A stretch of 64,000 nucleotides of DNA from assembly GCA_000004985.1 (NCBI GenBank), contig GG738873.1; one strand, given 5' to 3'. Below are positions 1,528-62,612 of this stretch, piece after piece. The notes under the pieces are model-generated. The model did not search any database. It was not told the DNA's origin and saw only the letters and a program-made list of their open reading frames with translations. Made by a program: the position numbers and the translations under genes. This stretch comes from Naegleria gruberi. Taxonomy: Eukaryota. Every line of letters starts with the position of its first letter. Within the stretch, counting starts at the first letter, position 1.

Positions 1528-3429
1528 TTATTGGATTAAACATTTAGGTTTACCATTATTCGAAACTTGAGAATCCTGTAAAAGACAGCACTTTACAATC
1601 AATTCTTTCAATTCTTCAATTCCCACCATTTTCAATGAAGAAACTTCTGTAAATGATAAACATTTCAATTCTCTGGCTAGATTTTCTCCTTCCTCATACG
1701 AAACTATTCTTGGTTTTTCTTTCGAATAAAAATTTTCTCCTGGATTATAATTCCTCAAATCAGATTTTGTTCCCAACAGTAGAATTGGTGTTTTTGGTGA
1801 GTGAAGTCTTGTTTCCTCTACAAAAGTATCCTTAACTCGATGAAAGCTGTCTAAATTGTAGATACTGTACACTACAATGGTAAGATCTGGTGGAGGAGAG
1901 TAGGATAAATATCTAATTATTTCATAATCATATCCTCCAGCTGTATCTCTCATTTGGAGTGTGAATGTTTGATTTTTGAGAGTTACTGGAATTGGATGTT
2001 CACTTTCGAATACTGTTGGGATGTATTCTTGTGGAAATTCATTCATGGCTAGTACTATTTGCATTGAGGTTTTACCAACATTTGATGATCCAATTACGGT
2101 AATTCTAAATTCATGTAAATTATTTTCAGTTTCCTTGACAAGTTGTTGAATGTCTTGTTTTAAAATTTCCTGTTTTGGCTTGAATTGAAATTCAATGAGG
2201 GTTTTAATTCTTCCCAGTTCAATAATGTGATTTTTGGATTGTTGATAAAAAGTTCTTGAATGTAAAGCAAGATTGTAATAATTAACTCCACTACGTCGTG
2301 GGCTCACATTTTGTGATTTGCTTAACAAGAACTTCTTCCATAATTTGTCCTCAATGCTTAGTTGACTAAGTTGACAGTCTTTTCCAATCAATTGAACATT
2401 ATTGAGATCATGAACTGGTAAATATTCCAAAATCATTCTAAAAATGTCTTCGTTTAGCATTGATAACTTTCCATTATTTTCCTTTGCATTGATATTTGAG
2501 ATAGATTGTTGATATTTTCCTCCCCAGACAAAATAATAAACCACAAAGGTTAATTCGTGGGGTGTGTAAATGGTCAATGAATGGAAAACAGGTCCAAATT
2601 CAGAATTATTAAACACTCGAGAGAGAAAATGAAAGTTTTCTTCTCTCCACTCATTCTTCTCTGAGAGGTTTAAACTATGTAGAGTGGTAAAATCATGATT
2701 TGAATTACAACCACCAATCAAGAATAGCCTATCGTTTTCTATCCATGATTTGTGACCATATCTTGAAATATTTTGAGGAATTTTCTTGATTTTACAATTC
2801 AGATACTCAGATTCTGATAAATTTTCTAAATCAATTAGTAAAACGTCATTGATTGGAATATTTCCACTTTGTTTTCCACCTGAAATGATCAACAAATTAT
2901 TGTAAATCAGTGAGGAATGAAAGTATCTCCCCAAAATTTCATTATTTTTCCTATTTTTTAAAGACCGACATTTCCATTCGAAAGTTTTCAAATTTAATTC
3001 GAAAACTTGATTGGAAACAAATCCATCAGAATCATATCCACCAAATATAATCATGGAATCTTTGTAAATCTCAGCAGAATGTCCAAATCTGGGAGAAATA
3101 ACTTGATCATTCACAGTTGTTAGTTTCGTCCATTTTCCAACAGATTCCTTTGAATTAAATTCGAATTGCCAAACATCAGCTAGATATCCATTCGATTTAC
3201 CACCAAATAAAATCATTTTGTGATCATGGGAGATTGCAGAATGGAAATTTCTTGGAGATGGTTTTTCACCTTCCGATAAAATTATTGGAATGCAAGATTC
3301 TGATGAAATTTCATAAACTCTCAACTGATCAGAGTATTCGTTTTGATTGGCACTTTCGAGTAATCCACCAAAAATTAAAATATATTCATTGTTGATATTG
3401 ACGGATGTGTGACCGATGAGTTTTGACAT
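1528..3429 (-). CDS. Kelch-repeat beta-propeller, F-box and Rho/Rac-like GTPase in one polypeptide (633 aa)
   Basis: Single uninterrupted ORF with an A-rich context before the ATG. The N-terminal about 330 aa carry repeated kelch-type motifs (ILIFGG, MILFGG, MIIFGG, LIISGG, LFLIGG). An F-box-like segment follows (LNEDIFRMILEYLPVHDLNNVQLIGKDCQ...DKLWKKFLL). The C-terminal domain aligns to Rac/Rho: GSSNVGKT P-loop, YIPTVFE, DTAGGYDY, LLGTKSDLR. Confidence 0.8.
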   Translation of the reverse strand: MSKLIGHTSVNINNEYILIFGGLLESANQNEYSDQLRVYEISSESCIPIILSEGEKPSPRNFHSAISHDHKMILFGGKSNGYLADVWQFEFNSKESVGKWTKLTTVNDQVISPRFGHSAEIYKDSMIIFGGYDSDGFVSNQVFELNLKTFEWKCRSLKNRKNNEILGRYFHSSLIYNNLLIISGGKQSGNIPINDVLLIDLENLSESEYLNCKIKKIPQNISRYGHKSWIENDRLFLIGGCNSNHDFTTLHSLNLSEKNEWREENFHFLSRVFNNSEFGPVFHSLTIYTPHELTFVVYYFVWGGKYQQSISNINAKENNGKLSMLNEDIFRMILEYLPVHDLNNVQLIGKDCQLSQLSIEDKLWKKFLLSKSQNVSPRRSGVNYYNLALHSRTFYQQSKNHIIELGRIKTLIEFQFKPKQEILKQDIQQLVKETENNLHEFRITVIGSSNVGKTSMQIVLAMNEFPQEYIPTVFESEHPIPVTLKNQTFTLQMRDTAGGYDYEIIRYLSYSPPPDLTIVVYSIYNLDSFHRVKDTFVEETRLHSPKTPILLLGTKSDLRNYNPGENFYSKEKPRIVSYEEGENLARELKCLSFTEVSSLKMVGIEELKELIVKCCLLQDSQVSNNGKPKCLIQ

Positions 3430-4159: not shown

Positions 4160-4232
4160 GCCCGTCTAGCTCAGTCGGTAGAGCGCAAGGCTCTTAACCT
4201 TGTGGTCGTGGGTTCGACCCCCACGGTGGGCG
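4160..4232 (+). tRNA. tRNA-Lys (anticodon CTT)
   Basis: The 73-nt sequence GCCCGTCTAGCTCAGTCGGTAGAGCGCAAGGCTCTTAACCTTGTGGTCGTGGGTTCGACCCCCACGGTGGGCG has a canonical cloverleaf with anticodon loop CTCTTAA. It is near-identical in layout to eukaryotic tRNA-Lys-CTT. Confidence 0.9.
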
Positions 4233-4412: not shown

Positions 4413-7400
4413 CTAGAAATTTTGAATGTCAGCACTTGTTGGTCTCATACTTGGTTCCTTTGAGACCATAGTCACAATAAAATTGCAAAGCTTCTCAGAG
4501 TAACCTCTTGATATCAAGTGTTCCATTGTTCTGTCCAACACCACTTCTTCCTTATCGTATAATAATTGAGCTGTAATGTTTAAATCTAAGGAATCATTTG
4601 CCATGGCCTGAATGAGTGAAACTCCAAGTGAAAATATATCAGCACTATAACTGTATTTTCTAGAAAAGACCTCAGGTGCCATATATTGCAATGTTCCTGC
4701 AACTGAATTTTGAGTTTCTCCAGTTTCCTTTGCCTCTCCATAATCACCAATAACCACTTGGATTTCATCCAATTCACGGTCCAATTTACTATAGAAAATA
4801 TTACGTGGTTTGATATCTCTGTGAACAATTAGTTTCTCTTGGTGAAGATAGTTCAAACCATCTCCAAGTTGTTTCATGATGGAGATGATCATCTTCTCAG
4901 AGACAATCTTTCCATCTTGTTTCAAATCTTTCAAGGCATGTTCCAAGTCGCCTTCATAAAATTTCATTACAATACAAATAGATTGAATAATCTGTGCTTC
5001 AAAGAATTCATAAACTTCAACCAGATTTGCATGTCTGTATGAAAGTGTTTTGGAACATTCATCAATAATTTTAGAATGTCTGCTTTGATCATAACTAATA
5101 GTCTTGATGGCAACTGGCATGTCATTCTTTTTAGAATCCAAACAGAGATAACATTTACCAAATGCACCCTGACCAATAACTTGTTGAATCTTGTATCTAT
5201 CTTTGAGCAAAGAATGATCTGTGTTTTGAGTAGAAGAAGTAGTAGTTGTGTTAGTATTGGAAGTATTGGAAGACAATTGGTACAAGGAATTGTTAAAGGT
5301 ATCGCTTGGGAAATCTGAAGTCACTGATGTACTATTATTGGCTGTTTGAGTGACATTTTCATCAATGGTTGTTATCATTTCAATTGGTTTTTCCTTAGTA
5401 ACCAGTGGTTTGCTTTTCTTCTTCTTTAATTTCACAATGAGACAGATGGTGACAATGATTGCAAGCAATATTAACAATACCAATAATGTTAAACCCACAA
5501 CCAATCCAACAATCAATCCAATGTTAGAATTAACTGGAGTAGTCACTTGTCCATTCTTGGATGCAAGTGGAGAGACATAGGTAGGAGGAACAATTCTATT
5601 CTCACAACTCAATCCACTATATCCTTCCAGACATGAACAACCATTACTTGATGTACATGTTCCATTTCCACTACAATTTTTCACGGCATCACAAGAGAAG
5701 AGGGAACAATCGAGACTTCCCTTCCATCCACTAGTGCATGAGCATGTATTATTACTCACACAGAAACCATGTCCTGAACAGGCATTCAATGTTTCACATG
5801 AGAAGAGAGAGCAATCAGAACTTCCTCTCCAGCCAGAATAACACGAACAATTGTTCATTACACAATCTCCATGTCCACTACATTGATTCTGTAGGTCACA
5901 ACCAAAAGAGATTGCTCTCACCTTTCCATTACTTGTGTCAGCAATGAAAATTTTAGATTCATCAGCAGAGAGAGCTACTCCCATTGGTCCATAAAATTGA
6001 GTTTCCAAAGGGTGCAAATTCTCTCCATTGTATCCATACAGTGGTGCAGTACCAGCAATGGTTATCAAAGTTCCATTCTTAAATAATTTCCTTATGGCAT
6101 GGTTTTGGGAATCAGAAATCAATAGTTCATCATTGGATAAAATGGCAAGACCAGCAGGATATCTCAACATTGAATTAACACCACTCAAATTCTCCCCACT
6201 ATATCCATCCACCCCAGTTCCTGCAATGGTAATGAGGGTTCCATCATTGAGAATTTTTCTCACTCGATGGCCTTCATACTCTGAAAAAATAACTTCATTA
6301 TTAGAGGTCAGTACAATTCCATATGGATTATTAATATTGGCACTAGTTGCTAATAGCCCATCTCCATTGTAGGTAGAAGTACCGGTACCAGCTACAGTAA
6401 TGATGGTCTGATTGAAAAACACTTTTCTAATTCGATGATTTCCAGAATCGGTAATGTACAAATCTCCATTTGTGGATCTGGCAATTCCTTTTGGTAAATT
6501 TAAATGAGCACTAGTAGCAGGAATGTTATCAGCATTGTATCCAGTAGTTCCAGATCCAGCTTTTGTTATTACAATTCCACTAGAAGATATGAGATATTTC
6601 ACAGTTGACGAATCAACAAAATAGTACTCCCCTACATTGGGCACGAGTGGAGATCTGGGTGAAATATAACTTGGAGTAATGGTTGTGATAATTCCACCGA
6701 GTGAAATCTTTCTCAATCTATAATTTCTTGTGTCGGCCACAATAACCTCATTATTTGGAGCGACAGCAACCGATTCTGGACCAAAGAGTTTTGCCTTCAC
6801 TGCCTCAATATTATCACCATTGTAGCCGAGATTGGAACCTGTTCCAGCAACAGTAGTGATGATATTGTTTGTGTTAATCTTTCTGACTCTGTAATTTCCA
6901 CCATCGGAAATGAAAATCTCCCCACTCGAGGATATAGCAATGCCTCTTGTGACTCTGAACATGGCATTGGATGCCAATTGATTGTCTCCAGCATAGCCAT
7001 ATGATGATCCAGCTATTAATGTTGCAACTCCATTCGTTTGAATCATGTACACTTTATCTGAAACAGTGACATAGAGAGCACCAGTGATTGGAGATATTGC
7101 CATTCCATTGACTGTATTAGTCTGGCCAGAGAGTTCAAAAGTAGTGAACATGACTACACTGGTGCCATTATTGAAAACCTTTCTAATCTTGTCATATTCT
7201 CCAATGTAAACTTCTCCACTATTAGAGATGGCAATGGAAGTGGGGAAGTTTAACTGTGCATTAGTTGCATCCTGTACCACAGTGGATGTATCTGTTCCAC
7301 CTCCAGCGAATGTTCTAATGATACCATCCGTATACGAAACTACACGAATTTTGTTATTTGAGGTTTCTGCAATATATAAATTATTATTCACAGGAGAGAT

Positions 7401-7961
7401 GACAATTCCACCTGGTGTATTCAATAGTGCATTGGTAGCGACTCCATCATCACCGATACTCCCTGGTACACCAACTTGACCAGCGTATGTGCTAATCAAA
7501 TTACTAGATAATATGACCTTTCGAATAACATGACTATTCGTATCAGACAAGTACATGACATCACTATTCTGAAAAGCAAGTGCACTAGGATAATTGAAAC
7601 GAGCCAAAGTTGCTATAGTTGTCGTGACAGAACCAGGAATACCCACACCAGCAATTGTTTTAATTTTACCACTACTTGCCACTACTTGTCTCACTCGACA
7701 ATTTATCTTGTCAACTATGAAAATGTCACCATTGTTACTTGGAGAGAGTGCAAGACCATCAGGTATGGCAATTTCTGCCTTGGTAGCATCAATGTTATCA
7801 CCATTGTAACCATTGGGATAACTACCTGCTATGGTTTTTACATGGTATAAAGATTGACCGTGGACAATTGGTTGGGCAGCAAGAAACACCAAGTGAAACA
7901 AAAACAACAATGGTAGCAAGAATGTTGAGCTATTAGTGTTGTTGAGTTTCAATTTGTCCAT
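4413..7961 (-). CDS. Receptor-like protein kinase (1,182 aa) with signal peptide, NHL-repeat propeller, EGF-like Cys-rich modules, a transmembrane helix and a C-terminal Ser/Thr kinase domain
   Basis: Continuous ORF with an A-rich start context. The N-terminus MDKLKLNN...LLPLLFLFHLVFLAA looks like a signal peptide. There are more than 15 NHL-type repeats (YNGDNI.A..A.L..P.G.A......IYIAD..N.RIRK.). Three CSGHG.C....C.C..GW.G..C modules look like EGF repeats. A TM segment (GLIVGLVVGLTLLVLLILLAIIVTICLIV) is followed by a kinase with GQGAFGK, VAIK, HRDIKPRN, DYG and MAPE motifs. Confidence 0.8.
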   Translation of the reverse strand: MDKLKLNNTNSSTFLLPLLFLFHLVFLAAQPIVHGQSLYHVKTIAGSYPNGYNGDNIDATKAEIAIPDGLALSPSNNGDIFIVDKINCRVRQVVASSGKIKTIAGVGIPGSVTTTIATLARFNYPSALAFQNSDVMYLSDTNSHVIRKVILSSNLISTYAGQVGVPGSIGDDGVATNALLNTPGGIVISPVNNNLYIAETSNNKIRVVSYTDGIIRTFAGGGTDTSTVVQDATNAQLNFPTSIAISNSGEVYIGEYDKIRKVFNNGTSVVMFTTFELSGQTNTVNGMAISPITGALYVTVSDKVYMIQTNGVATLIAGSSYGYAGDNQLASNAMFRVTRGIAISSSGEIFISDGGNYRVRKINTNNIITTVAGTGSNLGYNGDNIEAVKAKLFGPESVAVAPNNEVIVADTRNYRLRKISLGGIITTITPSYISPRSPLVPNVGEYYFVDSSTVKYLISSSGIVITKAGSGTTGYNADNIPATSAHLNLPKGIARSTNGDLYITDSGNHRIRKVFFNQTIITVAGTGTSTYNGDGLLATSANINNPYGIVLTSNNEVIFSEYEGHRVRKILNDGTLITIAGTGVDGYSGENLSGVNSMLRYPAGLAILSNDELLISDSQNHAIRKLFKNGTLITIAGTAPLYGYNGENLHPLETQFYGPMGVALSADESKIFIADTSNGKVRAISFGCDLQNQCSGHGDCVMNNCSCYSGWRGSSDCSLFSCETLNACSGHGFCVSNNTCSCTSGWKGSLDCSLFSCDAVKNCSGNGTCTSSNGCSCLEGYSGLSCENRIVPPTYVSPLASKNGQVTTPVNSNIGLIVGLVVGLTLLVLLILLAIIVTICLIVKLKKKKSKPLVTKEKPIEMITTIDENVTQTANNSTSVTSDFPSDTFNNSLYQLSSNTSNTNTTTTSSTQNTDHSLLKDRYKIQQVIGQGAFGKCYLCLDSKKNDMPVAIKTISYDQSRHSKIIDECSKTLSYRHANLVEVYEFFEAQIIQSICIVMKFYEGDLEHALKDLKQDGKIVSEKMIISIMKQLGDGLNYLHQEKLIVHRDIKPRNIFYSKLDRELDEIQVVIGDYGEAKETGETQNSVAGTLQYMAPEVFSRKYSYSADIFSLGVSLIQAMANDSLDLNITAQLLYDKEEVVLDRTMEHLISRGYSEKLCNFIVTMVSKEPSMRPTSADIQNF

Positions 7962-8504
7962 TTTTTTGAAAGTTATTGGTCTTTGTTAACACAGTATCTT
8001 GGTCTCTCCACAAGGAAAGGTCGCGGTACTCATCCAAGATACTACTCTCCATGGAGTTCAGTTGCCAATATAAAGATCGGACTTGCAATCTCATTCACGC
8101 ATTCATGTGTACCTGTTCAAGTTTAAAAAAGTGTTGTTTTTGAACATGAATGAGCAATGCATAGAAGGCACAATATTTAAAATGTTTGCGAATGATTCGT
8201 TTCAAAAAGTGATCATGTTCATTAAAGTTTCATTGTCACATTGAACAATGATAGTATCTGCAGAACCAACGAATGGTCTGTTTCAAATATTTGTTGCACC
8301 AAATCAGAATGGTAACATTTTCAAATGCAAGTCTCTTACTGTCAACATCGTCCATCTCTCAGTGGACCTTAAGAGAGTATCAATTCGTGCCTTGGAAGCT
8401 TTTTTGTTTGGATGGAGGTCTTGGTTTAAGTGTGGGAGATTGTGGTGGAGTAATTGAGGAAGAATCATTTGATACTATTGACCTATATTTTCTTTATAAA
8501 AAAA

Positions 8505-9618
8505 TGGCAAAACACAATCTTGCATCTCTTCCACAAGAAATTCTTCGGATCATATTATCGTATCATGTAATAGGCACATGTGGAGAATCAGCTGATTCTT
8601 CTCGGAAGGAAAAAACAACAATTTCCATCAATCAAGAAATTAAATTTATGACCAATTTTCAATCGATCAGTTCAATAATTAATAGCAAATTAAAGGAATA
8701 TTTTGATGATTTTTGGAGTGGAATTTTTGAACAATATTGTGTTGATGAAGAGGAGAAACAGGATCCTAAATTTCGAATAATGAAAGAGAAATTGGTAGAA
8801 ATGGACGAATTAAAGAGAAAGATTCTTTTAATTCGTTATATTGCTCCGATTATGATAAAACACGAAAAGATAAGAAAGACATTTAGAGATTATTTGAGAA
8901 TTGTAGTATTTGGTGATGAAGCAGTGGGTTAGTTTATTTGAAATTAATTGTTTCTAATATTGAAAAGGAAAGTCCAGTATAATTCTACGTTTCATAGAAG
9001 GTGAATTTAAAGAATGGGATCCAACTGTTGAGGATTTTCATTTGAAATCTGTAAAATTTGGAAATTCAACAACTAATCTCGATATTCTTGGTGTGGGTAC
9101 GTGAATTGAAATATTTCTTTTTAACAATTCTCGAAACTCCATATACGGATAGCTGGCCAAATGGAACACAACTCACACAGCATTAGAAATGGATATCTGA
9201 GTCAATGTGATTGTTATCTGGGTGTCTGCTCAGCAACCATCAAAAATTCAATGAATTATATAGAAGAAAACATTCAAGATTTAAATAATTCTAAGGATGG
9301 GCCCTACACACCAATCATTGTTGTGTTAAATAAGATGGATCTTATTGAGAATGATATCAATGACAGTTCAGATCGGAAATGAACAGAATTATTAAGAAAA
9401 ATAATCTTGAAAATGTTTTCACTGTTGAATGCAGTGCCAAGACAGGCGAAAATATTTCACTAATATTTGATGCATGTATTCAAATGTATATTTATGAATA
9501 TTTGAGAAGAAAGTGGTGGAATCTTTTGGAAAATGTCGCCAAGTTTGACTCTAAATATATTGAGCTGTGTACTGCTGATCCTTCCAAGTCAAAGAAAAAA
9601 ACTTGCCTCCTGAACTAG
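8505..9618 (+). CDS. Ras-like small GTPase with an N-terminal F-box-like extension and a polybasic CAAX tail. At least three introns (8928-8967, 9097-9152) plus a frame discontinuity near 9365-9400.
   Basis: ATG at 8505 in an aaaaaaATGG context. LASLPQEILRIILSY is F-box-like. Exon 1 ends GDEAVG at a GTTAGT donor, exon 2 gives GKSSIILRF...DPTVEDF, exon 3 gives VAGQ...IIVVLNKMDL (NKxD), and the last ORF gives ECSAKTGENI (SAK) then KSKKKTCLLN-stop (CAAX). The NKMD-to-SAK junction needs either a 31-nt GTTCAG...AAG intron (9368-9398) or a 1-nt frameshift. Confidence 0.55.
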
Positions 9619-9671: not shown

Positions 9672-12600
9672 ATGATAATTGACCAACACCAAACTGCACC
9701 TCGTTGGATTTGCAACAAGTGCCAAGGATTCATCGATAGGGGAACAATCCGATACGTCAATACTGATGAAAAGGACTTTGACTTGTGTGAAAATTGTTAT
9801 CACTGGTGTTGGGAACAGTATCAGAAGAGAAAGCAACATAATACAAATTCACAATTTAATTCTCTTGATGATGATGGTGATGATGATGTTGGGAATAACA
9901 CGGAAAATAACAAAATATTGGACATGTTCTGTAGGGATTTGGAATTTATTGTACCAACCAAGTATCACTATTCTGAAATGAAAGGACGAATTAAAAGTTC
10001 CGATCGGTTTAATAGTTCTCTGTTTAGATCATTTGTTGAATATTCACTCAATCCTTGCTTTGGATTGTTGAAACAAGATGATGGTCCCTATCATTTTCAA
10101 ACCTATGAACAGGTATTTCATTTGATTTGTTGCATCAGTATTGGATTAGATCAGATTTTGAAACCATTAATACGAGTGGGAAAGAGACAATTTGTATCAA
10201 TATGTGGAAAGAATAATTTGTATTGGTATTTGAGTGATTATGCTTGTTTCTTTAGGGGGTTTGTGATTGCCCCCATTCATTTTGCTCAATCATTTGAGGA
10301 GACGAAATATTGCATTGAACTGACAGAGAGTCAAGTTGCTATTTGTACTGAAGAAATGTTAGATTTATTCATTAGAATTACCAAAGAGTTGGATATTGTG
10401 AAATATATTATTGTAATGGATGATACAGAATCAAAATCAAGAGGAAAATTTACCAATCAAAGAGGAACACAAGAAATTGAAATTATTCCAATGAATGACA
10501 TTATTGACGCTGGAAAATCAATATTGTGTGAATATTTGAATGAAAAGAACAAACCAAGAACGAATCCATATCCAGAACATTATGAAAATCACGAGACAAT
10601 CCTTGTGACTCCACCTCAGGACAAGTACGATCCTAGAAAGATGTGGATTGGAGTGGAACATGAAGAATTTATTCTAAATAGGTTGGATAATGAGGAGGAT
10701 CTAGTGACTCTTGTTTTCACAAGTGGATCCACTGGTATTCCAAAAGGAATCATGATGAGTGATAGAGCTTTGAGAAAGGAAGTACTCAGTTTAAGGATAA
10801 AAGATCCTAAAGTTCGTTTCTCTTTTTGTCCACTCGCTCACATGAGTGATAGAAAATACACCCTATTGGCCATGTGTAATGGAGCCAGAGTTGGAATATT
10901 TACTAGAGAATTTGTTCACATCTTTGAGGATATTCAAAACTGCAAACCAGTTGTAATTGCATCCACTCCAAGATTATTCAATGTGCTGTACGATGAGTTT
11001 AAGAAAGTAGTCGAATTGGAAAGAATTCGTTGGCTTTCTTCCACTGAAACTGGGAAACCAAAAACTGAGAAGGAACTTGAGGAAAGAACCATGCTTGACT
11101 TTCAATACATGCTTGGTGGGCGTGTTCAATCAATTATTCTTGGAGGGGCTTCTTCTAGCCCACAATTAAGAGAATTTTTGGCAAAATGTTTCCAGTGTAA
11201 AGTAACAGATGGTTTTGGAATGTCTGAAGCTGGAGGAATTATGAATAACAATCGACTCAACACTAATGTCGAATACAAGTTGATTGATGTTCCTGAATTG
11301 AGCTATTTCACAACAGACAAACCTTATCCGAGAGGAGAACTTTGTGTCAAGACAAATTACATGTTTATTGGATATTATAAGAATGAAGAGCTCACTAATA
11401 ATGCACTGGATGAAAATGGATGGTTACACACCAACGATATTGTTGAAGAATTAGGACCAAATCAAATCAGAATTATTGACAGACTGAAGAATATTTTCAA
11501 ATTGAGTCAGGGTGAATTCATAGCACCTGCCAAGATTGAAGATGCTCTCACTACCTCTAAATTTATTTTCCAAGCTTTTATTTATGGCAATGTGACAAAG
11601 AGCTACTTGGTTGGTGTCATTGTTCCCAACAAAACAGTTTTAAAACAGTTTGCAATTAAGGAAGGAATTATCAAACCATCAGCCGATCACCATCTCCTAA
11701 ATGAAGAAGAGAAAGAAGTATTGGCAAATAATGAGCTGATCAAGAAAGCTCTATGTGAAGAGATTGAGAAAGTTGCTGTAAATTGTTCACTTTTGTCTTA
11801 CGAAGTTCCAAAAGATTTTATCATTGAATTTGAACCTTTTAGTGAGAAAAATGATTTACTAACCTCCTCTATGAAGGTTAAGAGATTTGGATGTGAAATG
11901 AAATATAAGGAACAATTGGAGACACTCTATGAGCATGTAGATAGAAATTACAAGAGAAAGTTGGACGAAGATTTGATTCGTGAATTGTTAGTGAACTCCT
12001 CATCAGGCTCAGAGGAATCTGCAGATGGAAATATGAAAATTATTGACAGTCTTCATGCAGTTAAATTTTCTGGAATTATGAAACAAAAATTCAACATTGA
12101 CATTCCACTTTCATTGATATTTTCTCAAACGGATAGGAATGTGGAAAGTGTAGTGAGTAGAGTTTCAAACTTTGTCACAAAAGGCCAAACTAATCAGCAA
12201 TCGTATGACTGGAAAAAGGATATTCTCTTACCACAAGAACTTCTCGATGAAATTACTGACATTACTTCAAAAGGAAAGCAGAAATTCAATAAGATATCAA
12301 ACCTAAAGAAGGGTATTCTTCTGACTGGCTCAACTGGATTTTTAGGTGCCTTCCTATTGAGAGATTTATTGGAGAATTTACAAACAGCTCAGGAGCATGT
12401 GAAAATCTATTGTTTGATAAGAGAAAAGAATCAGCAACACAGTTTATTCACTAGATTGAAGAAACATCTTGTAAAATTCAATATCTGGAAAGATACTTAT
12501 GAAAGGAGAATATCTGTCATTAGGGGAAATTTACAGGATGAGAATTTAGGTCTCTCTCATGAGGAATTCAACAAATTGGCTGGAGATGTTGACATTATTT

Positions 12601-13604
12601 ACCACAATGGAGCATATGTCAACTCAGTCATGTCGTACTCTCAATTATTCTCTTCCAATGCTGGATCTACGTACTATTTATTGAAACTTGCTTGCCTGTC
12701 ATCAAAATTGAATATCCAAAATGATGGAGATTCCTTAACACCAATTATTCTCGTTTCAACTGTTGGTGTTGTACAATCTGCGTTGTCAGAATTTGATCTA
12801 CCAACCAGAAAATCTCAAGTTAATGATAACCCTCAGGAAACTAAAGAAATGATTAGCAATCATGTCGATCAAGTCATTGGTCAACTGAAACCAATTATTG
12901 AAAAAGCAGCTGGGTATAACAGCACCAAATTTATTGCAGAACAATACATTCAACAAGCAAGGTTATTGGGATATCCCGGTGCCATCTTTAGACCAGGAAT
13001 GATTGGAAGTGATACTGAGAATGGAGTTTCGAATTTAGAGGACTGGGTCAATAGGTTGATTCTGGGATGTTTCGAATTGGGTTGCTTCCCACAAACCAAA
13101 AAATCTCTCAATGTCATTCCTGTGGATATTATTTCAAGAGTGATTGTGGAATTGACACAGAATGAGAATGTATTCATTGGTACTTTACAATCCAATCCAA
13201 ACTATTTGATTTATGAGGTGGCTAATCTTTCTCAATATGAAATTCAAATTGATAATTTACTTGGCATCGCTGCCACAACTCTAGCGAAATTGCTAAACAA
13301 GAAACCAATGGAAATGGTTAGCTACACTAAGTGGAAACAAATACTGAATGAGAGAACATCAACCGAAGAAAACGAAATGTTATTGATTTTGAAAACTCTC
13401 TTCAAATCAGATACGGAATTTCTAAAAAGCATAAACAAACTCCAAGACAACCACATTCAGAAAATCATTGAAGTTCTTTCTAGATCAGAAAGCATACAGT
13501 GCAGAGAATTAGTTCCTAACAAAAATCTAAACCAAAACTATCTTGAAAAACAAGCTCTATACCTAGTCCAGAGTCTCAAGAAGAAATTGGGCGAAAATTT
13601 ATAA
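9672..13604 (+). CDS. ZZ-type zinc finger, long-chain acyl-CoA-synthetase-type adenylation domain, phosphopantetheine carrier (PCP) domain and NAD(P)-dependent thioester reductase domain (about 1,310 aa)
   Basis: Uninterrupted ORF; the first ATG at 9672 has an A-run before it. The ZZ finger is CNKCQGFIDRGTIRYVNTDEKDFDLCENCYHWCWEQY. AMP-binding motifs are LVFTSGSTGIPKG, GYYKNEELT..GWLHTNDI, IIDRLKNIFKLSQGEFIAPAKIE and LLTSSMKVKR (ACSL-type). The carrier motif is GNMKIIDSLHAVKF...IDIPLSLIF (DSL serine). The reductase domain has LLTGSTGFLGAFLL (Rossmann fold) and GYNSTKFIAEQ (YxxxK). Confidence 0.85.
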   Translation: MIIDQHQTAPRWICNKCQGFIDRGTIRYVNTDEKDFDLCENCYHWCWEQYQKRKQHNTNSQFNSLDDDGDDDVGNNTENNKILDMFCRDLEFIVPTKYHYSEMKGRIKSSDRFNSSLFRSFVEYSLNPCFGLLKQDDGPYHFQTYEQVFHLICCISIGLDQILKPLIRVGKRQFVSICGKNNLYWYLSDYACFFRGFVIAPIHFAQSFEETKYCIELTESQVAICTEEMLDLFIRITKELDIVKYIIVMDDTESKSRGKFTNQRGTQEIEIIPMNDIIDAGKSILCEYLNEKNKPRTNPYPEHYENHETILVTPPQDKYDPRKMWIGVEHEEFILNRLDNEEDLVTLVFTSGSTGIPKGIMMSDRALRKEVLSLRIKDPKVRFSFCPLAHMSDRKYTLLAMCNGARVGIFTREFVHIFEDIQNCKPVVIASTPRLFNVLYDEFKKVVELERIRWLSSTETGKPKTEKELEERTMLDFQYMLGGRVQSIILGGASSSPQLREFLAKCFQCKVTDGFGMSEAGGIMNNNRLNTNVEYKLIDVPELSYFTTDKPYPRGELCVKTNYMFIGYYKNEELTNNALDENGWLHTNDIVEELGPNQIRIIDRLKNIFKLSQGEFIAPAKIEDALTTSKFIFQAFIYGNVTKSYLVGVIVPNKTVLKQFAIKEGIIKPSADHHLLNEEEKEVLANNELIKKALCEEIEKVAVNCSLLSYEVPKDFIIEFEPFSEKNDLLTSSMKVKRFGCEMKYKEQLETLYEHVDRNYKRKLDEDLIRELLVNSSSGSEESADGNMKIIDSLHAVKFSGIMKQKFNIDIPLSLIFSQTDRNVESVVSRVSNFVTKGQTNQQSYDWKKDILLPQELLDEITDITSKGKQKFNKISNLKKGILLTGSTGFLGAFLLRDLLENLQTAQEHVKIYCLIREKNQQHSLFTRLKKHLVKFNIWKDTYERRISVIRGNLQDENLGLSHEEFNKLAGDVDIIYHNGAYVNSVMSYSQLFSSNAGSTYYLLKLACLSSKLNIQNDGDSLTPIILVSTVGVVQSALSEFDLPTRKSQVNDNPQETKEMISNHVDQVIGQLKPIIEKAAGYNSTKFIAEQYIQQARLLGYPGAIFRPGMIGSDTENGVSNLEDWVNRLILGCFELGCFPQTKKSLNVIPVDIISRVIVELTQNENVFIGTLQSNPNYLIYEVANLSQYEIQIDNLLGIAATTLAKLLNKKPMEMVSYTKWKQILNERTSTEENEMLLILKTLFKSDTEFLKSINKLQDNHIQKIIEVLSRSESIQCRELVPNKNLNQNYLEKQALYLVQSLKKKLGENL

Positions 13605-60342: not shown

Positions 60343-62612
60343 ATGCCACCAAGAAAGAAATCAGCCAAAAAGAAGGAAGAGGAAGAGAGTGACGAAGAAA
60401 TACTAGAAGAACCAACCGAATTTAATATTACAATAGATGATGATGTTAAACCTTTCACAAACGAATATGATGAATTAGTTAGATTTGATTCTCTCGAAAA
60501 GCTTCCTTCCGAAGTTGTATTTGAAATATTTAGCTTTTTACCTTCTATTCCATACTATTTTAAATTGCAATTGTTGAGTAAATTCTACAAGGAAAAGTTT
60601 CAAGAAATTATTACCCAAACAAAACATTTAGATCTTGCACCACTCAATCTTCAACATCATGCAATTTGGCCTAAAGTATGTCAAATGATCAAAGATTGTG
60701 GATCTTCATTAAAGAGTATTCAATTTGGAGAATTAAATTACAAATGGAATGAAATCAAGGAAGCAATTCTAAAGAAATGTTCCAAATTGGAAGAACTTGC
60801 ATTAGTAACTCCTACCATGTACTTTACTTCATTATTCAGAAAGGATGGCTCTTACTATGGATATTATGGTGGCCCTACTGTTGACTACTCTGAAGATAAA
60901 AAAAACAGAGATGTATGGTGTGATACTCTTACCACACTCAATGTGATTGGTTTAGAAAAGCCAAGAAAAGGCAGACGAAATCATAGTTACCTTCTCACAA
61001 GTGCCACTTTCAAATATATTCTTGAAAAATTCCCAAAGCTCAAAAATATTAATTTCATTCTTACTAATTATACAGAAATGCAAATTCAATCTCTTTATGA
61101 TGCAGTTGTAAGAAATAGAAAGAGATTACTTGAGTGGAGAGAAAAGGGTGGTAGTACTGATGGCCTTTATGAACGAACTGGAATTTGGTATGAAGAAGCT
61201 ATTGGAATTGTAGATTTTGATATTCCACACGATTTGAAAATCAATGTACAAGGAAGTATTGGAAAATTATCATCAATCGATGCTGCTAAAAATATTGTAG
61301 AAGTTTACAATATCAATCCAAATACCAAGTTTGAATTCTTATTCCAGAAGAATTCAAATGGTACATTACTAGATCAAATTATTGGTAGCCGTGCTGCTTA
61401 CAAACAAAAACATCAAGGTTAGTTGACATTTTCCCATTTTTATAACATTCCAAAGTAATTAACTATTTATTGAACAATGGAAGTCTTATTTCCAACCTGT
61501 CTGCAAATTCATGGCTCAATATTTTAAAACAACCAAATGAAAAAATCAAAAATCTTTTAGAAGAAATTACAAAATGGGTGGCCACCAAAAATGAAGGAAA
61601 AATGCTTTCTTCTGGCATATTCGCCTTAATAGTTTCAGGATGTATTTTTAATAATGTTGGAAATTTTATCAAGAATCTACAAGTTATGTTAAATAATGGC
61701 TGGTCAGATGTCAAAGACCAAAATCAAGACTTTATAACACCATCAATCATTTCGAACGAGTTGTGCACTTTTATGATTGAAAAGGCAGGATGTAAACTTA
61801 ATCCAACGACCGCTGCTACATTACTATCATCAGCTCTTTACTCTCACTTTAACTCACTTCCAATAGTTTTAAAGCTAGTTCCAGAAAAATTAGCCGAAAC
61901 ACCAACTGGGCAAGTTAAACCAACTCTCTCCCATGCCATTTCCAATTCTGATATACCTGATAGTGTAATTAATTATATTTTTGATTTTATTGTAAAGCCA
62001 AGTTATGCATTGAATGTGTTCACAAATACAGCTACTGGTGAAACTATTATTCATCAGCTGATTGCTGCTGACAGACTTGAACCTCTGCGTCTATTGCTTG
62101 ACATGCTTAAGGAACAAGAAAGAATTTCAAAAATTATTAACATTCCAAATAATTCAGGAGATACAGCACTTCATATGGCCTGCAAAAATAACAAGATTCA
62201 ACTAGCAAAAGACTTGGTAAATCATTATAGTGCTAATAAGAATTTATATAACGCCGATAATCAATTCCCTTATGATTTATTGAAAGTTAGCTCCCTTTCA
62301 TTCCTTCCTGAAATTTTAAAGCCAGATGAGGAAAAAGTTGAAGAGCTTAAAGAGTCCATAAAACAGAAGGAAAAAGAAATGCTTAAAGCACAAAAGAAAA
62401 AATCTCCAAAAAAGTCAGCAACCAAACGTAAAAAGGAAGAAAAGGAATCTGAAGAGGAGGAAGAGGAGAAACCAAGAAGGTCAACCAGAAAGAAAACCAA
62501 AAAGGAAATCCCAGTTGATTTAACTGACGATGATGAACAGGAAGTAGTTGAGGTGGAATCTGAGGAGGAAGTAAAACCAAAAAGAAAGCCAAGAACCTCG
62601 AAAAAAAAGTAA
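60343..62612 (+). CDS. F-box-like plus ankyrin-repeat protein with a K/E-rich tail. Proposed join(60343..61417,61456..62612).
   Basis: The 359-aa ORF (aaaaaaATG; F-box-like LEKLPSEVVFEIFSFLPSIPYYFKLQLLSKF) ends in HQG followed by TAG, where G|GTTAGT is a donor. A 38-nt intron (acceptor ccaaag at 61455) joins it in frame to the 380-aa ORF. That ORF has no ATG of its own (its track start is a TTG). It contains ankyrin repeats (GDTALHMACKNNKIQLAKDLVNH) and a lysine/glutamate tail. Confidence 0.5.

What the first reader, a model, noticed from the sequence alone, without database searches (positions are those of the whole stretch)
8505..9618. A second F-box-like/GTPase fusion: a Ras-like protein with polybasic CAAX tail, atypical P-loop, three short introns and a frame discontinuity
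This is an independent gene. The N-terminal about 140 aa start with an F-box-like LASLPQEILRIILSY. A Ras-type G domain follows, with a P-loop GDEAVGKS (acidic residue at the G12 equivalent), a degenerate switch II (ILGVAGQ instead of DTAGQE), NKMD, SAK, and a K-Ras-like KSKKKTCLLN polybasic-CAAX end. Two F-box-GTPase fusions in 10 kb suggest a family. The coding sequence is split by 40-nt and 56-nt introns. It also needs either a 31-nt GTTCAG intron (9368-9398) or a +1 frameshift between NKMD and SAK, so it could be a pseudogene, a sequencing error or an unusually small intron.
Basis: partly seen in the sequence, partly recalled or inferred. Interest (0 to 1): 0.6.

Follow-up and report, generated by a model that had tools for sequence, protein, structure and literature searches.

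The report
Frameshifted Naegleria Ras-like GTPase gene
This is an already catalogued Naegleria gruberi Ras-family GTPase gene (XP_002676200.1) from a large amoeba-specific family, and its "frame discontinuity" is a 13-base deletion that truncates this copy, not a tiny intron.

Summary
The gene is real. It starts at ATG 8504, has GT-AG introns of 40 nt (8928-8967) and 56 nt (9097-9152), and carries a Ras G domain (Pfam Ras, E 3.7e-25).

It is Naegleria gruberi XP_002676200.1 / NAEGRDRAFT_68567. Herman et al. 2021 (PMC8296547, Table S8) list it as a manually corrected "Ras" model ending at ...SSDRK.

The proposed 31-nt intron, actually 9366-9396, fails. Its length is 1 mod 3 and 2 mod 3 is needed. 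No GT-AG intron that keeps both NKMD and SAK restores the frame, and the "intron" encodes residues conserved in paralogs.

A 98-99% identical environmental contig (L001) carries 13 extra bases, TTCAGTGTTACAT, between window 9366 and 9367, bounded by a TTCAG direct repeat. With them the frame runs straight from NKMD to SAK. The window copy is therefore a microhomology deletion allele that stops at 9380-9382, giving 260 aa without G5, the C-terminal tail and the CaaX box.

The deletion looks recent: dN/dS against L001 is 0.20, and the out-of-frame tail is still open.

The F-box claim is only partly supported. This gene has no Pfam hit and AlphaFold models are poor, but the paralog family's N-terminal extension matches verified F-boxes by profile comparison (89% probability; 0 of 300 shuffles reach the score).

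Verdict: already known, low interest.

The parts
8504..8927 (+). Exon 1. It encodes the roughly 131-aa N-terminal extension, then strand beta-1 and the first part of the P-loop (GDEAVG).
   Evidence: Translation. It is identical to the curated XP_002676200.1* model. The ATG is supported because L001 carries frame-breaking indels just upstream of it but not within the CDS.
8519..8563 (+). F-box-like helix-1 motif LASLPQEILRIILSY (residues 6-20).
   Evidence: hhalign of the family N-extension against 9 Pfam-verified F-boxes gives P 3.3e-5 locally. With an insertion-less master sequence it aligns 42 columns at 89% probability, and 0 of 300 shuffles reach that score. This protein has no Pfam F-box hit.
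8928..8967 (+). Intron 1, 40 nt, GTTAGT...AAAAG, phase 1, inside the P-loop Gly codon.
   Evidence: The junction gives GDEAVG|KS, as in the NCBI model P0029 and the paralogs. The intron is conserved in L001.
8968..9096 (+). Exon 2. It encodes the end of the P-loop, switch I (WDPTVED) and beta2-beta3 up to LDILGV.
9097..9152 (+). Intron 2, 56 nt, GTACGT...GATAG, phase 1, inside switch II.
   Evidence: The junction gives GV|AGQ. Three of its 56 positions differ from L001, against about 1.3% difference in the exons.
9153..9382 (+). Exon 3 as encoded in this allele, from AGQ through NKMD to ...NDINDSSDRK, ending at the premature TGA (9380-9382). The product is 260 aa.
   Evidence: The NCBI model (P0029) and the curated model end at the same place.
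9366..9371 (+). Deletion junction. 13 nt (TTCAGTGTTACAT) present in L001 are missing between 9366 and 9367. The surviving TTCAG copy (9367-9371) is the microhomology.
   Evidence: Window versus L001 DNA alignment. The L001 translation is continuous: NKMDLIENDINDSSVLHFRSEMNRIIKKNNLENVFTVECSAK. The NKxD-to-SAK spacing then equals that of paralog XP_002673059.1.
9367..9618 (+). Out-of-frame remnant of the original coding sequence. It holds FRSEMNRIIKK..., G5 (ECSAK), helix alpha-5, the family-specific C-terminal extension, the polybasic KSKKK stretch, the CaaX box CLLN and the TAG stop (9616-9618).
   Evidence: Frame-1 translation. It is colinear with the paralog C-termini. An 84-codon stop-free stretch has a chance probability of about 5e-4.
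9366..9396 (+). It is rejected: this is coding sequence.
   Evidence: Removing it leaves stops. No frame-restoring GT-AG intron keeps NKMD. The segment encodes EMNRIIK, which aligns to conserved I-x-x-I-I-K in paralogs.

Best explanation
The locus is Naegleria gruberi NAEGRDRAFT_68567 (XP_002676200.1). It is one of more than a dozen paralogs of a Naegleria-specific branch of the Ras family.

Members of this branch share four parts:
- a conserved, helical N-terminal extension of about 130 aa (LPxEILxxILSF ... NFQSL ... YFNEFWW ... ELKRKILL);
- a Ras G domain with relaxed catalytic positions;
- a C-terminal extension (LLKxVxxxDSxxIE);
- a polybasic CaaX tail.

Shown: in the genome this window comes from, the copy has lost 13 bp (TTCAGTGTTACAT) between two TTCAG repeats. 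That shifts the frame after ...NKMDLIENDIND and stops translation at 9380-9382. The 260-aa product lacks the G5 SAK loop, helix alpha-5 and the prenylation signal.

Inferred: the truncated product is very probably non-functional. The allele is a very young pseudogene or null allele, an example of the birth-and-death turnover already described for expanded Naegleria GTPase families.

Inferred: the intact form is a prenylated, membrane-anchored, probably slow-hydrolysing GTPase. Its N-terminal extension may be a divergent F-box with a 20-30-aa loop insertion, which would couple it to SCF-type ubiquitin ligases.
For: Identity:
- The curated model in PMC8296547 Table S8 is letter-for-letter the window's translation.
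- P0029 is XP_002676200.1 / EFC43456.1 from N. gruberi.

Family:
- 20-33% identity to 11 N. gruberi paralogs over the N-extension, the G domain and the C-tail.
- An intact paralog exists, P0032 = XP_002668509.1.
- Pfam Ras matches all 12 members.

Deletion:
- L001 (ENA ERZ929261, 2089 bp) is about 98.5% identical.
- It has 13 extra nt flanked by TTCAG repeats exactly where the frame breaks.
- Its ORF stays open to the contig end.

Not an intron.

Recency and former function:
- dN/dS is 0.20, from 7 synonymous and 6 non-synonymous changes. The binomial P against neutrality is 0.006.
- 84 downstream codons remain stop-free, with a chance probability of about 5e-4.

Literature:
- F-box is the most frequent domain added to Naegleria GTPases.
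- Disrupted members indicate birth-and-death evolution (PMC8296547 Additional file 4).

F-box likeness of the family.
Against: - The deleted allele is seen only in this one assembly. I could not examine raw reads or transcripts, so an assembly artefact or a heterozygous site with an intact second haplotype is not excluded.
- L001 ends before the CaaX box, so the intact allele's tail is inferred from the window's out-of-frame sequence.
- Herman et al. did not flag this gene as a putative pseudogene in Table S8.
- No F-box evidence exists for this protein on its own.
Confidence: 0.8

Rival explanations
1. Assembly or sequencing artefact. The strain really carries the 13 nt and the gene is intact (343 aa). 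The reference consensus dropped one TTCAG-bounded unit.
For: - The downstream frame, the SAK motif and the CaaX box are perfectly preserved.
- The gene shows purifying selection.
- An intact allele exists in a near-identical organism.
Against: - A 13-bp loss between 5-bp direct repeats is a typical replication-slippage or microhomology mutation, not a typical base-calling error (own knowledge).
- The NCBI and curated gene models both accept the stop. They derive from the same assembly, so this is weak evidence.
Confidence: 0.1
2. Heterozygous null. The deletion is real but sits on only one haplotype of a heterozygous diploid, so the strain still makes the full-length protein from the other allele.
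For: - Naegleria is described as mainly a heterozygous diploid (PMC9928731).
- Herman et al. recovered some paralogs only from unassembled reads, so the assembly is not haplotype-complete.
- The deletion appears very young.
Against: No read-level data were available. No second copy of the locus was found in the collections searched.
Confidence: 0.3
3. One reading: a 31-nt GT-AG mini-intron (9366-9396) is spliced out to join NKMD to SAK.
For: The segment has GT...AG termini. The genome does use short introns of 40 and 56 nt.
Against: - 31 nt is the wrong length modulo 3, and stops follow the splice.
- No frame-restoring GT/GC-AG intron keeps NKMD.
- The segment encodes residues conserved in paralogs.
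- It is read through in frame in L001, where the same element would be 44 nt and its removal would break the frame.
- Splicing it would shorten the G4-G5 spacing by about 10 residues relative to the whole family.
Confidence: 0.01
4. The truncated 260-aa protein (N-extension plus a G domain lacking G5, alpha-5 and CaaX) is itself a functional, soluble variant, or the frame is recovered by ribosomal frameshifting.
For: Several paralog models in Table S8 are also C-terminally short.
Against: - A Ras fold without beta-6, the G5 loop and alpha-5 is not expected to bind nucleotide stably (established Ras structural knowledge).
- No slippery-site or stimulatory-structure evidence was sought or seen.
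- The short paralog models are mostly incomplete models or are flagged as pseudogenes.
Confidence: 0.03

Closest known systems
Naegleria gruberi NAEGRDRAFT_68567 / XP_002676200.1 / EFC43456.1 (curated as 'Ras' in Herman et al. 2021, PMC8296547, Table S8)
   Same: It is the same gene. The curated 260-aa sequence equals the window translation exactly. The 161-aa NCBI model P0029 is 100% identical over its length and uses the same splice junctions.
   Different: Published models simply end at SSDRK. The gene is not flagged as a pseudogene and no additional domain is listed for it. The cause of the truncation (a 13-bp deletion) and the out-of-frame G5/CaaX remnant were not described in the material I could read.
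N. gruberi Ras paralogs with the same N- and C-terminal extensions (for example XP_002668509.1, XP_002673059.1, XP_002681395.1, XP_002682439.1, XP_002680941.1, ACER01000490.1)
   Same: - They are colinear over their whole length at 20-33% identity.
- They share LPxEILxxILSF, NFQSL, YFNEFWW and ELKRKILL.
- They have variable residues at Ras positions 12 and 61.
- They share the G4-G5 spacer I-x-x-I-I-K, the LLKxV..D motif and CaaX ends such as CSIM, CSLM, CVLN and CILC.
   Different: - This copy is frameshifted.
- It keeps Gln61 but has Gly in place of Asp57.
- Its CaaX box is CLLN.
Naegleria F-box-GTPase fusions (Rab-like, Rho/Rac, Ran and G-alpha families; Herman et al. 2021)
   Same: An N-terminal F-box-type module sits upstream of a small GTPase domain. 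The families are lineage-specific expansions, and some members are disrupted. The window's own neighbour (1528-3429, minus strand) is of the Kelch + F-box + Rac type.
   Different: [quoted passage not shown] The Ras-clade extension does not reach Pfam F-box thresholds and appears to carry a 20-30-aa insertion after helix 1.
TbFRP, the FYVE-F-box-GTPase of Euglenozoa (PMC3593210)
   Same: It is a multidomain Ras-like GTPase with an F-box N-terminal to the G domain. It has been suggested to link GTPase signalling to SCF-mediated turnover.
   Different: TbFRP has a FYVE domain and a Rab18-like G domain. That paper found no N. gruberi ortholog, so the fusions are independent.
K-Ras4B-type polybasic + CaaX membrane anchor (own knowledge)
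   Same: A lysine cluster (KSKKK) lies immediately upstream of a Cys-aliphatic-aliphatic-X end.
   Different: The terminal X is Asn, so prenyltransferase specificity is uncertain. In this allele the tail is out of frame and not translated.

Membership tests
Ras-superfamily small GTPase, Ras family (Pfam PF00071) | The profile match exceeds the curated threshold. | tested here: met
   88.8 bits against a 21.6 cutoff, E 3.7e-25, residues 132-295 matching profile positions 1-158 of 162, on the one-base-repaired translation.
Ras-superfamily small GTPase, Ras family (Pfam PF00071) | G1 P-loop GxxxxGK[ST]. | tested here: met
   GDEAVGKS at residues 137-144. Glu and Ala occupy the Ras G12 and G13 positions.
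Ras-superfamily small GTPase, Ras family (Pfam PF00071) | G2 switch I threonine. | tested here: met
   WDPTVED aligns to YDPTIED of the paralogs.
Ras-superfamily small GTPase, Ras family (Pfam PF00071) | G3 DxxG (Walker B aspartate). | tested here: not met
   The motif reads GVAGQ, so Asp is replaced by Gly. L001 has the same residues. Several paralogs also deviate here.
Ras-superfamily small GTPase, Ras family (Pfam PF00071) | G4 NKxD. | tested here: met
   NKMD at residue 244.
Ras-superfamily small GTPase, Ras family (Pfam PF00071) | G5 SAK present in the encoded protein. | tested here: not met
   ECSAK lies after the frameshift, in another frame, in this allele. It is in frame in L001.
Prenylated small GTPase (CaaX) | A C-terminal Cys-a-a-X in the translated product. 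| tested here: not met
   CLLN follows a polybasic run but is out of frame here. Paralogs end in CaaX. Prenylation itself cannot be tested with these tools.
Naegleria Ras clade with conserved N- and C-terminal extensions (Herman et al. 2021, Table S8) | Full-length colinearity with paralogs, including the extension motifs. | tested here: met
   Alignment A1: F70 is invariant and W71 and R105 nearly so, with 20-33% identity. The gene is listed in the table.
F-box domain (PF00646 / PF12937) | A Pfam profile match at or above the gathering score. | tested here: not met
   This protein has no hit even at E<=10. Paralogs give only sub-threshold hits, E 0.0055-0.14 and 12-17 bits.
F-box domain (PF00646 / PF12937) | Profile-profile similarity across helices H1-H3. 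| tested here: inconclusive
   hhalign gives 89.4% probability and P 2e-6 over 42 columns, covering template positions 1-44 of 48, when the insertion is treated as a loop. 0 of 300 shuffles reach that score. With default settings only helix 1 aligns, at 72%. The master sequence was chosen after seeing the data.
F-box domain (PF00646 / PF12937) | A three-helix F-box fold in a structure model. | tested here: inconclusive
   AlphaFold2 pLDDT is 40 from a single sequence and 48.6 from a 7-sequence alignment. The best Foldseek PDB hit has E 3.3.
F-box domain (PF00646 / PF12937) | Binds Skp1. | not testable with these tools
   Needs a biochemical assay or complex modelling with N. gruberi Skp1.
Spliceosomal intron (for 9366-9396) | Removal restores the reading frame and the segment is non-coding. 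| tested here: not met
   The length is 31 = 1 mod 3 and stops follow its removal. No valid alternative exists. The segment is homologous to coding residues in paralogs and in L001.

The most novel reading that the evidence does not exclude
The conserved N-terminal extension of this N. gruberi Ras clade (at least 12-15 genes) is a true, Skp1-binding F-box that has acquired a 20-30-residue loop between helices 1 and 2. The intact proteins would then be prenylated, membrane-anchored, nucleotide-gated SCF substrate receptors. This would extend the Naegleria F-box-GTPase theme to the Ras family, where the published catalogue lists no extra domain.
Probability: 0.3. Interest if true: 0.4.

Novelty: already known. 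Interest (0 to 1): 0.15.

Why it matters
For genome annotation, this shows that a frame break in a catalogued gene is a recent 13-bp microhomology deletion and not an ultra-short intron. It gives a dated, concrete example of the birth-and-death turnover proposed for the expanded Naegleria GTPase families.

The wider biological point is that Naegleria repeatedly fuses F-box-type modules to small GTPases, possibly to couple nucleotide state to ubiquitination. That point is already published. The only increment here is moderate profile-level evidence that the Ras-clade extension is also F-box-derived.

Tried and rejected
rejected after enumerating all GT/GC-AG introns.
- **Single-base repair:** scanned at every position from 9363 to 9381. 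It gives an ORF, but the L001 comparison shows the true lesion is 13 bp.
- **First protein search with the repaired sequence:** found only distant Ras hits at about 30% identity over the G domain.
- **Exact-product look-ups:** nothing found for neighbouring ORFs, for the two ORFs specific to the frameshift allele, or for P0029. The source assembly appears not to be in that index.
- **Allele-spanning pattern scan of JGI metagenome contigs:** no match.
- **PDB profile search with the N-extension:** returned only weak apolipoprotein A-I-type helical matches, E >= 0.028, taken as low-complexity helical noise.
- **Structure prediction:** AlphaFold2 of the N-extension, alone and with a 7-sequence alignment, was low confidence, and Foldseek against the PDB was uninformative.
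- **phmmer against 1.8 billion representatives:** also hit bacterial FAS1-repeat proteins through IPDDVLxxILxYHV. This shows that the short LPxEIL..ILSYHV motif alone is not diagnostic.
- **PRJEB11402, the source project of L001:** not found in the paper library.

Full report
**1. What is in the sequence**

The window is AT-rich (about 34% GC) and densely packed with long eukaryote-type ORFs.

At 8504 an ATG opens an ORF that reads MAKHNLASLPQEILRIILSY.... Three pieces in two frames then give a Ras-like protein.
- Exon 1 is 8504-8927 and ends inside the P-loop.
- A 40-nt GTTAGT...AG intron (8928-8967) joins GDEAVG to KSSIILRF.
- Exon 2 (8968-9096) carries WDPTVED and ends at LDILGV.
- A 56-nt GTACGT...AG intron (9097-9152) joins it to AGQMEH...NKMDLIENDINDSSDRK, followed by TGA at 9380-9382.
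- In the next frame the sequence continues (Q)FRSEMNRIIKKNNLENVFTVECSAKTGENI...KSKKKTCLLN, with TAG at 9616-9618.

A one-base-repaired translation matches Pfam Ras at E 3.7e-25 over profile positions 1-158 of 162. Its start coordinate is one base off.

**2. The proposed third intron does not work**

The GTTCAG...TTAAG element is at 9366-9396. It is 31 nt, which is 1 mod 3. Passing from the exon-3 frame to the SAK frame needs the removal of 2 mod 3. Splicing it out gives ...NDINDKK*S*.

I enumerated every GT/GC...AG interval between 9300 and 9440 that yields an uninterrupted ORF. All of them start at or before 9325 and delete the NKMD motif.

**3. Identity of the gene**

A literature search led to Herman et al. 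2021 (PMC8296547). Its Additional file 10 (Table S8) contains, under "Ras", a manually corrected model labelled XP_002676200.1*. Its 260 residues are identical to the window's translation and end at ...NDINDSSDRK.

A full HMMER scan of 1.8 billion representatives returned P0029. It is 161 aa and 100% identical, and it uses the same two splice junctions. The cluster look-up names it EFC43456.1 / XP_002676200.1 / NAEGRDRAFT_68567 of Naegleria gruberi, on a 461,873-bp contig. The window is therefore N. gruberi, and the gene is already catalogued.

The table does not mark it as a putative pseudogene and lists no extra domain for it.

**4. The family**

Table S8 holds many N. gruberi "Ras" entries that share this gene's unusual ends. 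They are 20-33% identical over the full length.

The conserved N-terminal extension reads LPxExLxxILSF ... NFQS ... YFNEFWW ... LKRKxLL, with F70 invariant and W71 and R105 nearly so. The G4-to-G5 spacer (...IExxxxxIxxIIKxxxLxNxxIxExSAK) and the C-terminal extension (LLKxVxxxD..I) are also conserved. The proteins end in CaaX boxes such as CSVM, CFIM, CSLM, CICM, CSMM, CNLM, CILC and CTLH. An intact 333-aa member, P0032 = XP_002668509.1, ends in CSIM.

The unusual catalytic positions are a family trait.
- Position 12 is G, E, K, V, S or R among paralogs.
- Most paralogs lack Gln61.
- Several have lost the DxxG aspartate.
- This gene has Glu12 and Gly57 and keeps Gln61.

**5. What caused the frame break**

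A profile search with the N-terminal extension returned P0026, which is 97% identical and comes from an ENA metagenome assembly. Its 2,089-bp contig, L001 (ERZ929261, ERR1078381, PRJEB11402), covers window positions from about 7642 to 9552.

The two sequences are about 98.5% identical. Both introns are conserved. L001 has frame-breaking indels upstream of the ATG but none in the CDS, apart from an in-frame 6-nt difference at codons 4-5.

Exactly at the frame break, L001 reads GACAG-TTCAGTGTTACAT-TTCAGATCGG, where the window reads GACAG-TTCAGATCGG. That is 13 extra bases, bounded by a TTCAG direct repeat.

With them the L001 ORF is continuous: NKMDLIENDINDSSVLHFRSEMNRIIKKNNLENVFTVECSAK. It stays open to the contig end. 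Its NKxD-to-SAK spacing equals that of paralog XP_002673059.1.

The long form is therefore ancestral, and the window carries a 13-bp microhomology-type deletion. The encoded product is 260 aa instead of 343. It lacks G5, helix alpha-5, the C-terminal extension and the prenylation signal.

**6. Age and former function**

Between the window and L001 there are 7 synonymous and 6 non-synonymous differences over 322 aligned codons. This gives dS 0.039, dN 0.0079 and dN/dS 0.20. The deficit of non-synonymous changes relative to neutrality has a binomial P of 0.006.

The 84 codons after the deletion are still stop-free in their original frame, which has a chance probability of about 5e-4 at this base composition.

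The gene was therefore under purifying selection until very recently, atypical P-loop and switch II included. The deletion is young, or heterozygous, or less likely an assembly artefact.

I could not find the deleted allele in any independent data. Naegleria is described as mainly a heterozygous diploid (PMC9928731), so an intact second haplotype is plausible.

**7. The F-box question**

For this protein alone the answer is negative or inconclusive.
- Pfam gives no F-box hit even at E <= 10.
- AlphaFold2 models of the extension have pLDDT 40 (single sequence) and 48.6 (7-sequence alignment).
- Foldseek against the PDB finds nothing better than E 3.3.

At the family level there is moderate support.
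- Four paralogs give sub-threshold hits to F-box families. These are F-box-like at E 0.057 (profile positions 2-36 of 47) in XP_002668120.1, which lacks the loop, then E 0.074, then F-box at E 0.064, then F-box-like_2 at E 0.0055.
- I built a reference alignment of nine F-boxes. Each exceeds Pfam thresholds. They are Skp2, Fbxw7, Cdc4 and six Naegleria Rab-like F-boxes.
- hhalign of the family extension against this reference aligns helix 1 at 72% probability, P 3.3e-5. One of 200 column shuffles reaches that score.
- When the insertion-less paralog is used as master, so that the variable 20-30-aa segment is treated as an insertion, 42 columns align. They span template positions 1-44 of 48, at 89.4% probability and P 2e-6.
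- In that alignment, LPxEIL..ILSF maps to helix 1, i..nFQSi.kk to the VCKxW helix, and FWW to the terminal LW.
- No column shuffle out of 300 exceeds a score of 14.5, against the observed 31.1.

The choice of master sequence was made after seeing the data, so I treat this as suggestive rather than established.

A caution: the same short motif also draws bacterial FAS1-repeat proteins in phmmer.

**8. Context and comparison**

Herman et al. (Additional file 4) report several relevant points.
- N. gruberi has about 80 Ras-family genes.
- Some expanded clades have CaaX ends.
- F-box and BTB fusions point to GTPase-dependent ubiquitination.

It is a 633-aa protein with a Kelch propeller, a weak F-box match (E 0.01), a Rho/Rac-type G domain and a CLIQ end. 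"Kelch, F-box" Rac proteins are listed in Table S8. It belongs to a different clade from the gene under study.

TbFRP of trypanosomes (FYVE-F-box-GTPase, PMC3593210) is an independent analogue.

**9. Verdict**

The Ras/CaaX interpretation is correct. The F-box idea is plausible at the family level but unproven. The mini-intron is wrong.

The locus is a published N. gruberi gene. It belongs to a published lineage-specific expansion whose turnover by disruptive mutations is also published. What this analysis adds is the exact lesion (a 13-bp TTCAG-bounded deletion), evidence that it is recent, and profile-level evidence that the Ras-clade extension is F-box-derived.

Novelty: already known. Interest: low.

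Noticed in passing
window 1528-3429 (-): A 633-aa single-exon ORF. It has an N-terminal Kelch beta-propeller (Pfam E 2e-41), a weak F-box-like segment LSMLNEDIFRMILEYLP (F-box E 0.01, below threshold), a Rho/Rac-type G domain (Ras E 3e-29) and a CLIQ CaaX end. It matches the 'Kelch, F-box' Rac architecture listed for N. gruberi in PMC8296547 Table S8.
   Followed up: partly
window 4160-4232 (+): A tRNA-Lys (CTT) gene lies between the Kelch-Rho gene and the receptor-kinase gene (ARAGORN).
   Followed up: no
window 4413-7961 (-): A 1182-aa ORF with a signal-peptide-like start, many NHL repeats, teneurin-type EGF modules, a transmembrane stretch and a C-terminal protein kinase domain (Pfam). This is a receptor-kinase-like architecture.
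   Followed up: partly
window 9672-13601 (+): A 1310-aa ORF starting only about 55 nt after the GTPase gene's stop. It has an AMP-binding adenylation domain and an NAD_binding_4 reductase domain, a carboxylic-acid-reductase / acyl-AMP ligase-reductase type. These are preceded by a Cys-rich, ZZ-zinc-finger-like N-terminus (CNKC...CENCYHWC), which was read by eye and not tested.
   Followed up: partly
window 8166-8177 versus L001 526-730; window 8513-8518: Relative to the window, the environmental contig L001 carries about 194 extra nt in the intergenic region upstream of the gene. It also has several small indels just before the ATG, and it lacks 6 nt in frame (codons His4-Asn5). The nature of the 194-nt segment, for example whether it is a mobile element, was not examined.
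   Followed up: no
window 60343-61422 (+): A 359-aa ORF containing LEKLPSEVVFEIFSFLP, an F-box-like motif found by regex. It has no Pfam family at E <= 0.001.
   Followed up: partly
P0030 and P0033 (bacterial FAS1-repeat proteins): phmmer with the N-terminal extension hits repeated IPDDVLTxILxYHVV segments of fasciclin-domain proteins (E 8e-6 and 1e-4). This is a convergent short-motif resemblance to LPQEILRIILSYHVIG, and it shows how weak the motif is as evidence on its own.
   Followed up: no
databases: Exact-product look-ups failed for every window ORF, and even for the NCBI protein P0029. The word-indexed protein search also missed N. gruberi paralogs that the full HMMER scan found (against 47). 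The source assembly seems to be absent from some indices.
   Followed up: no
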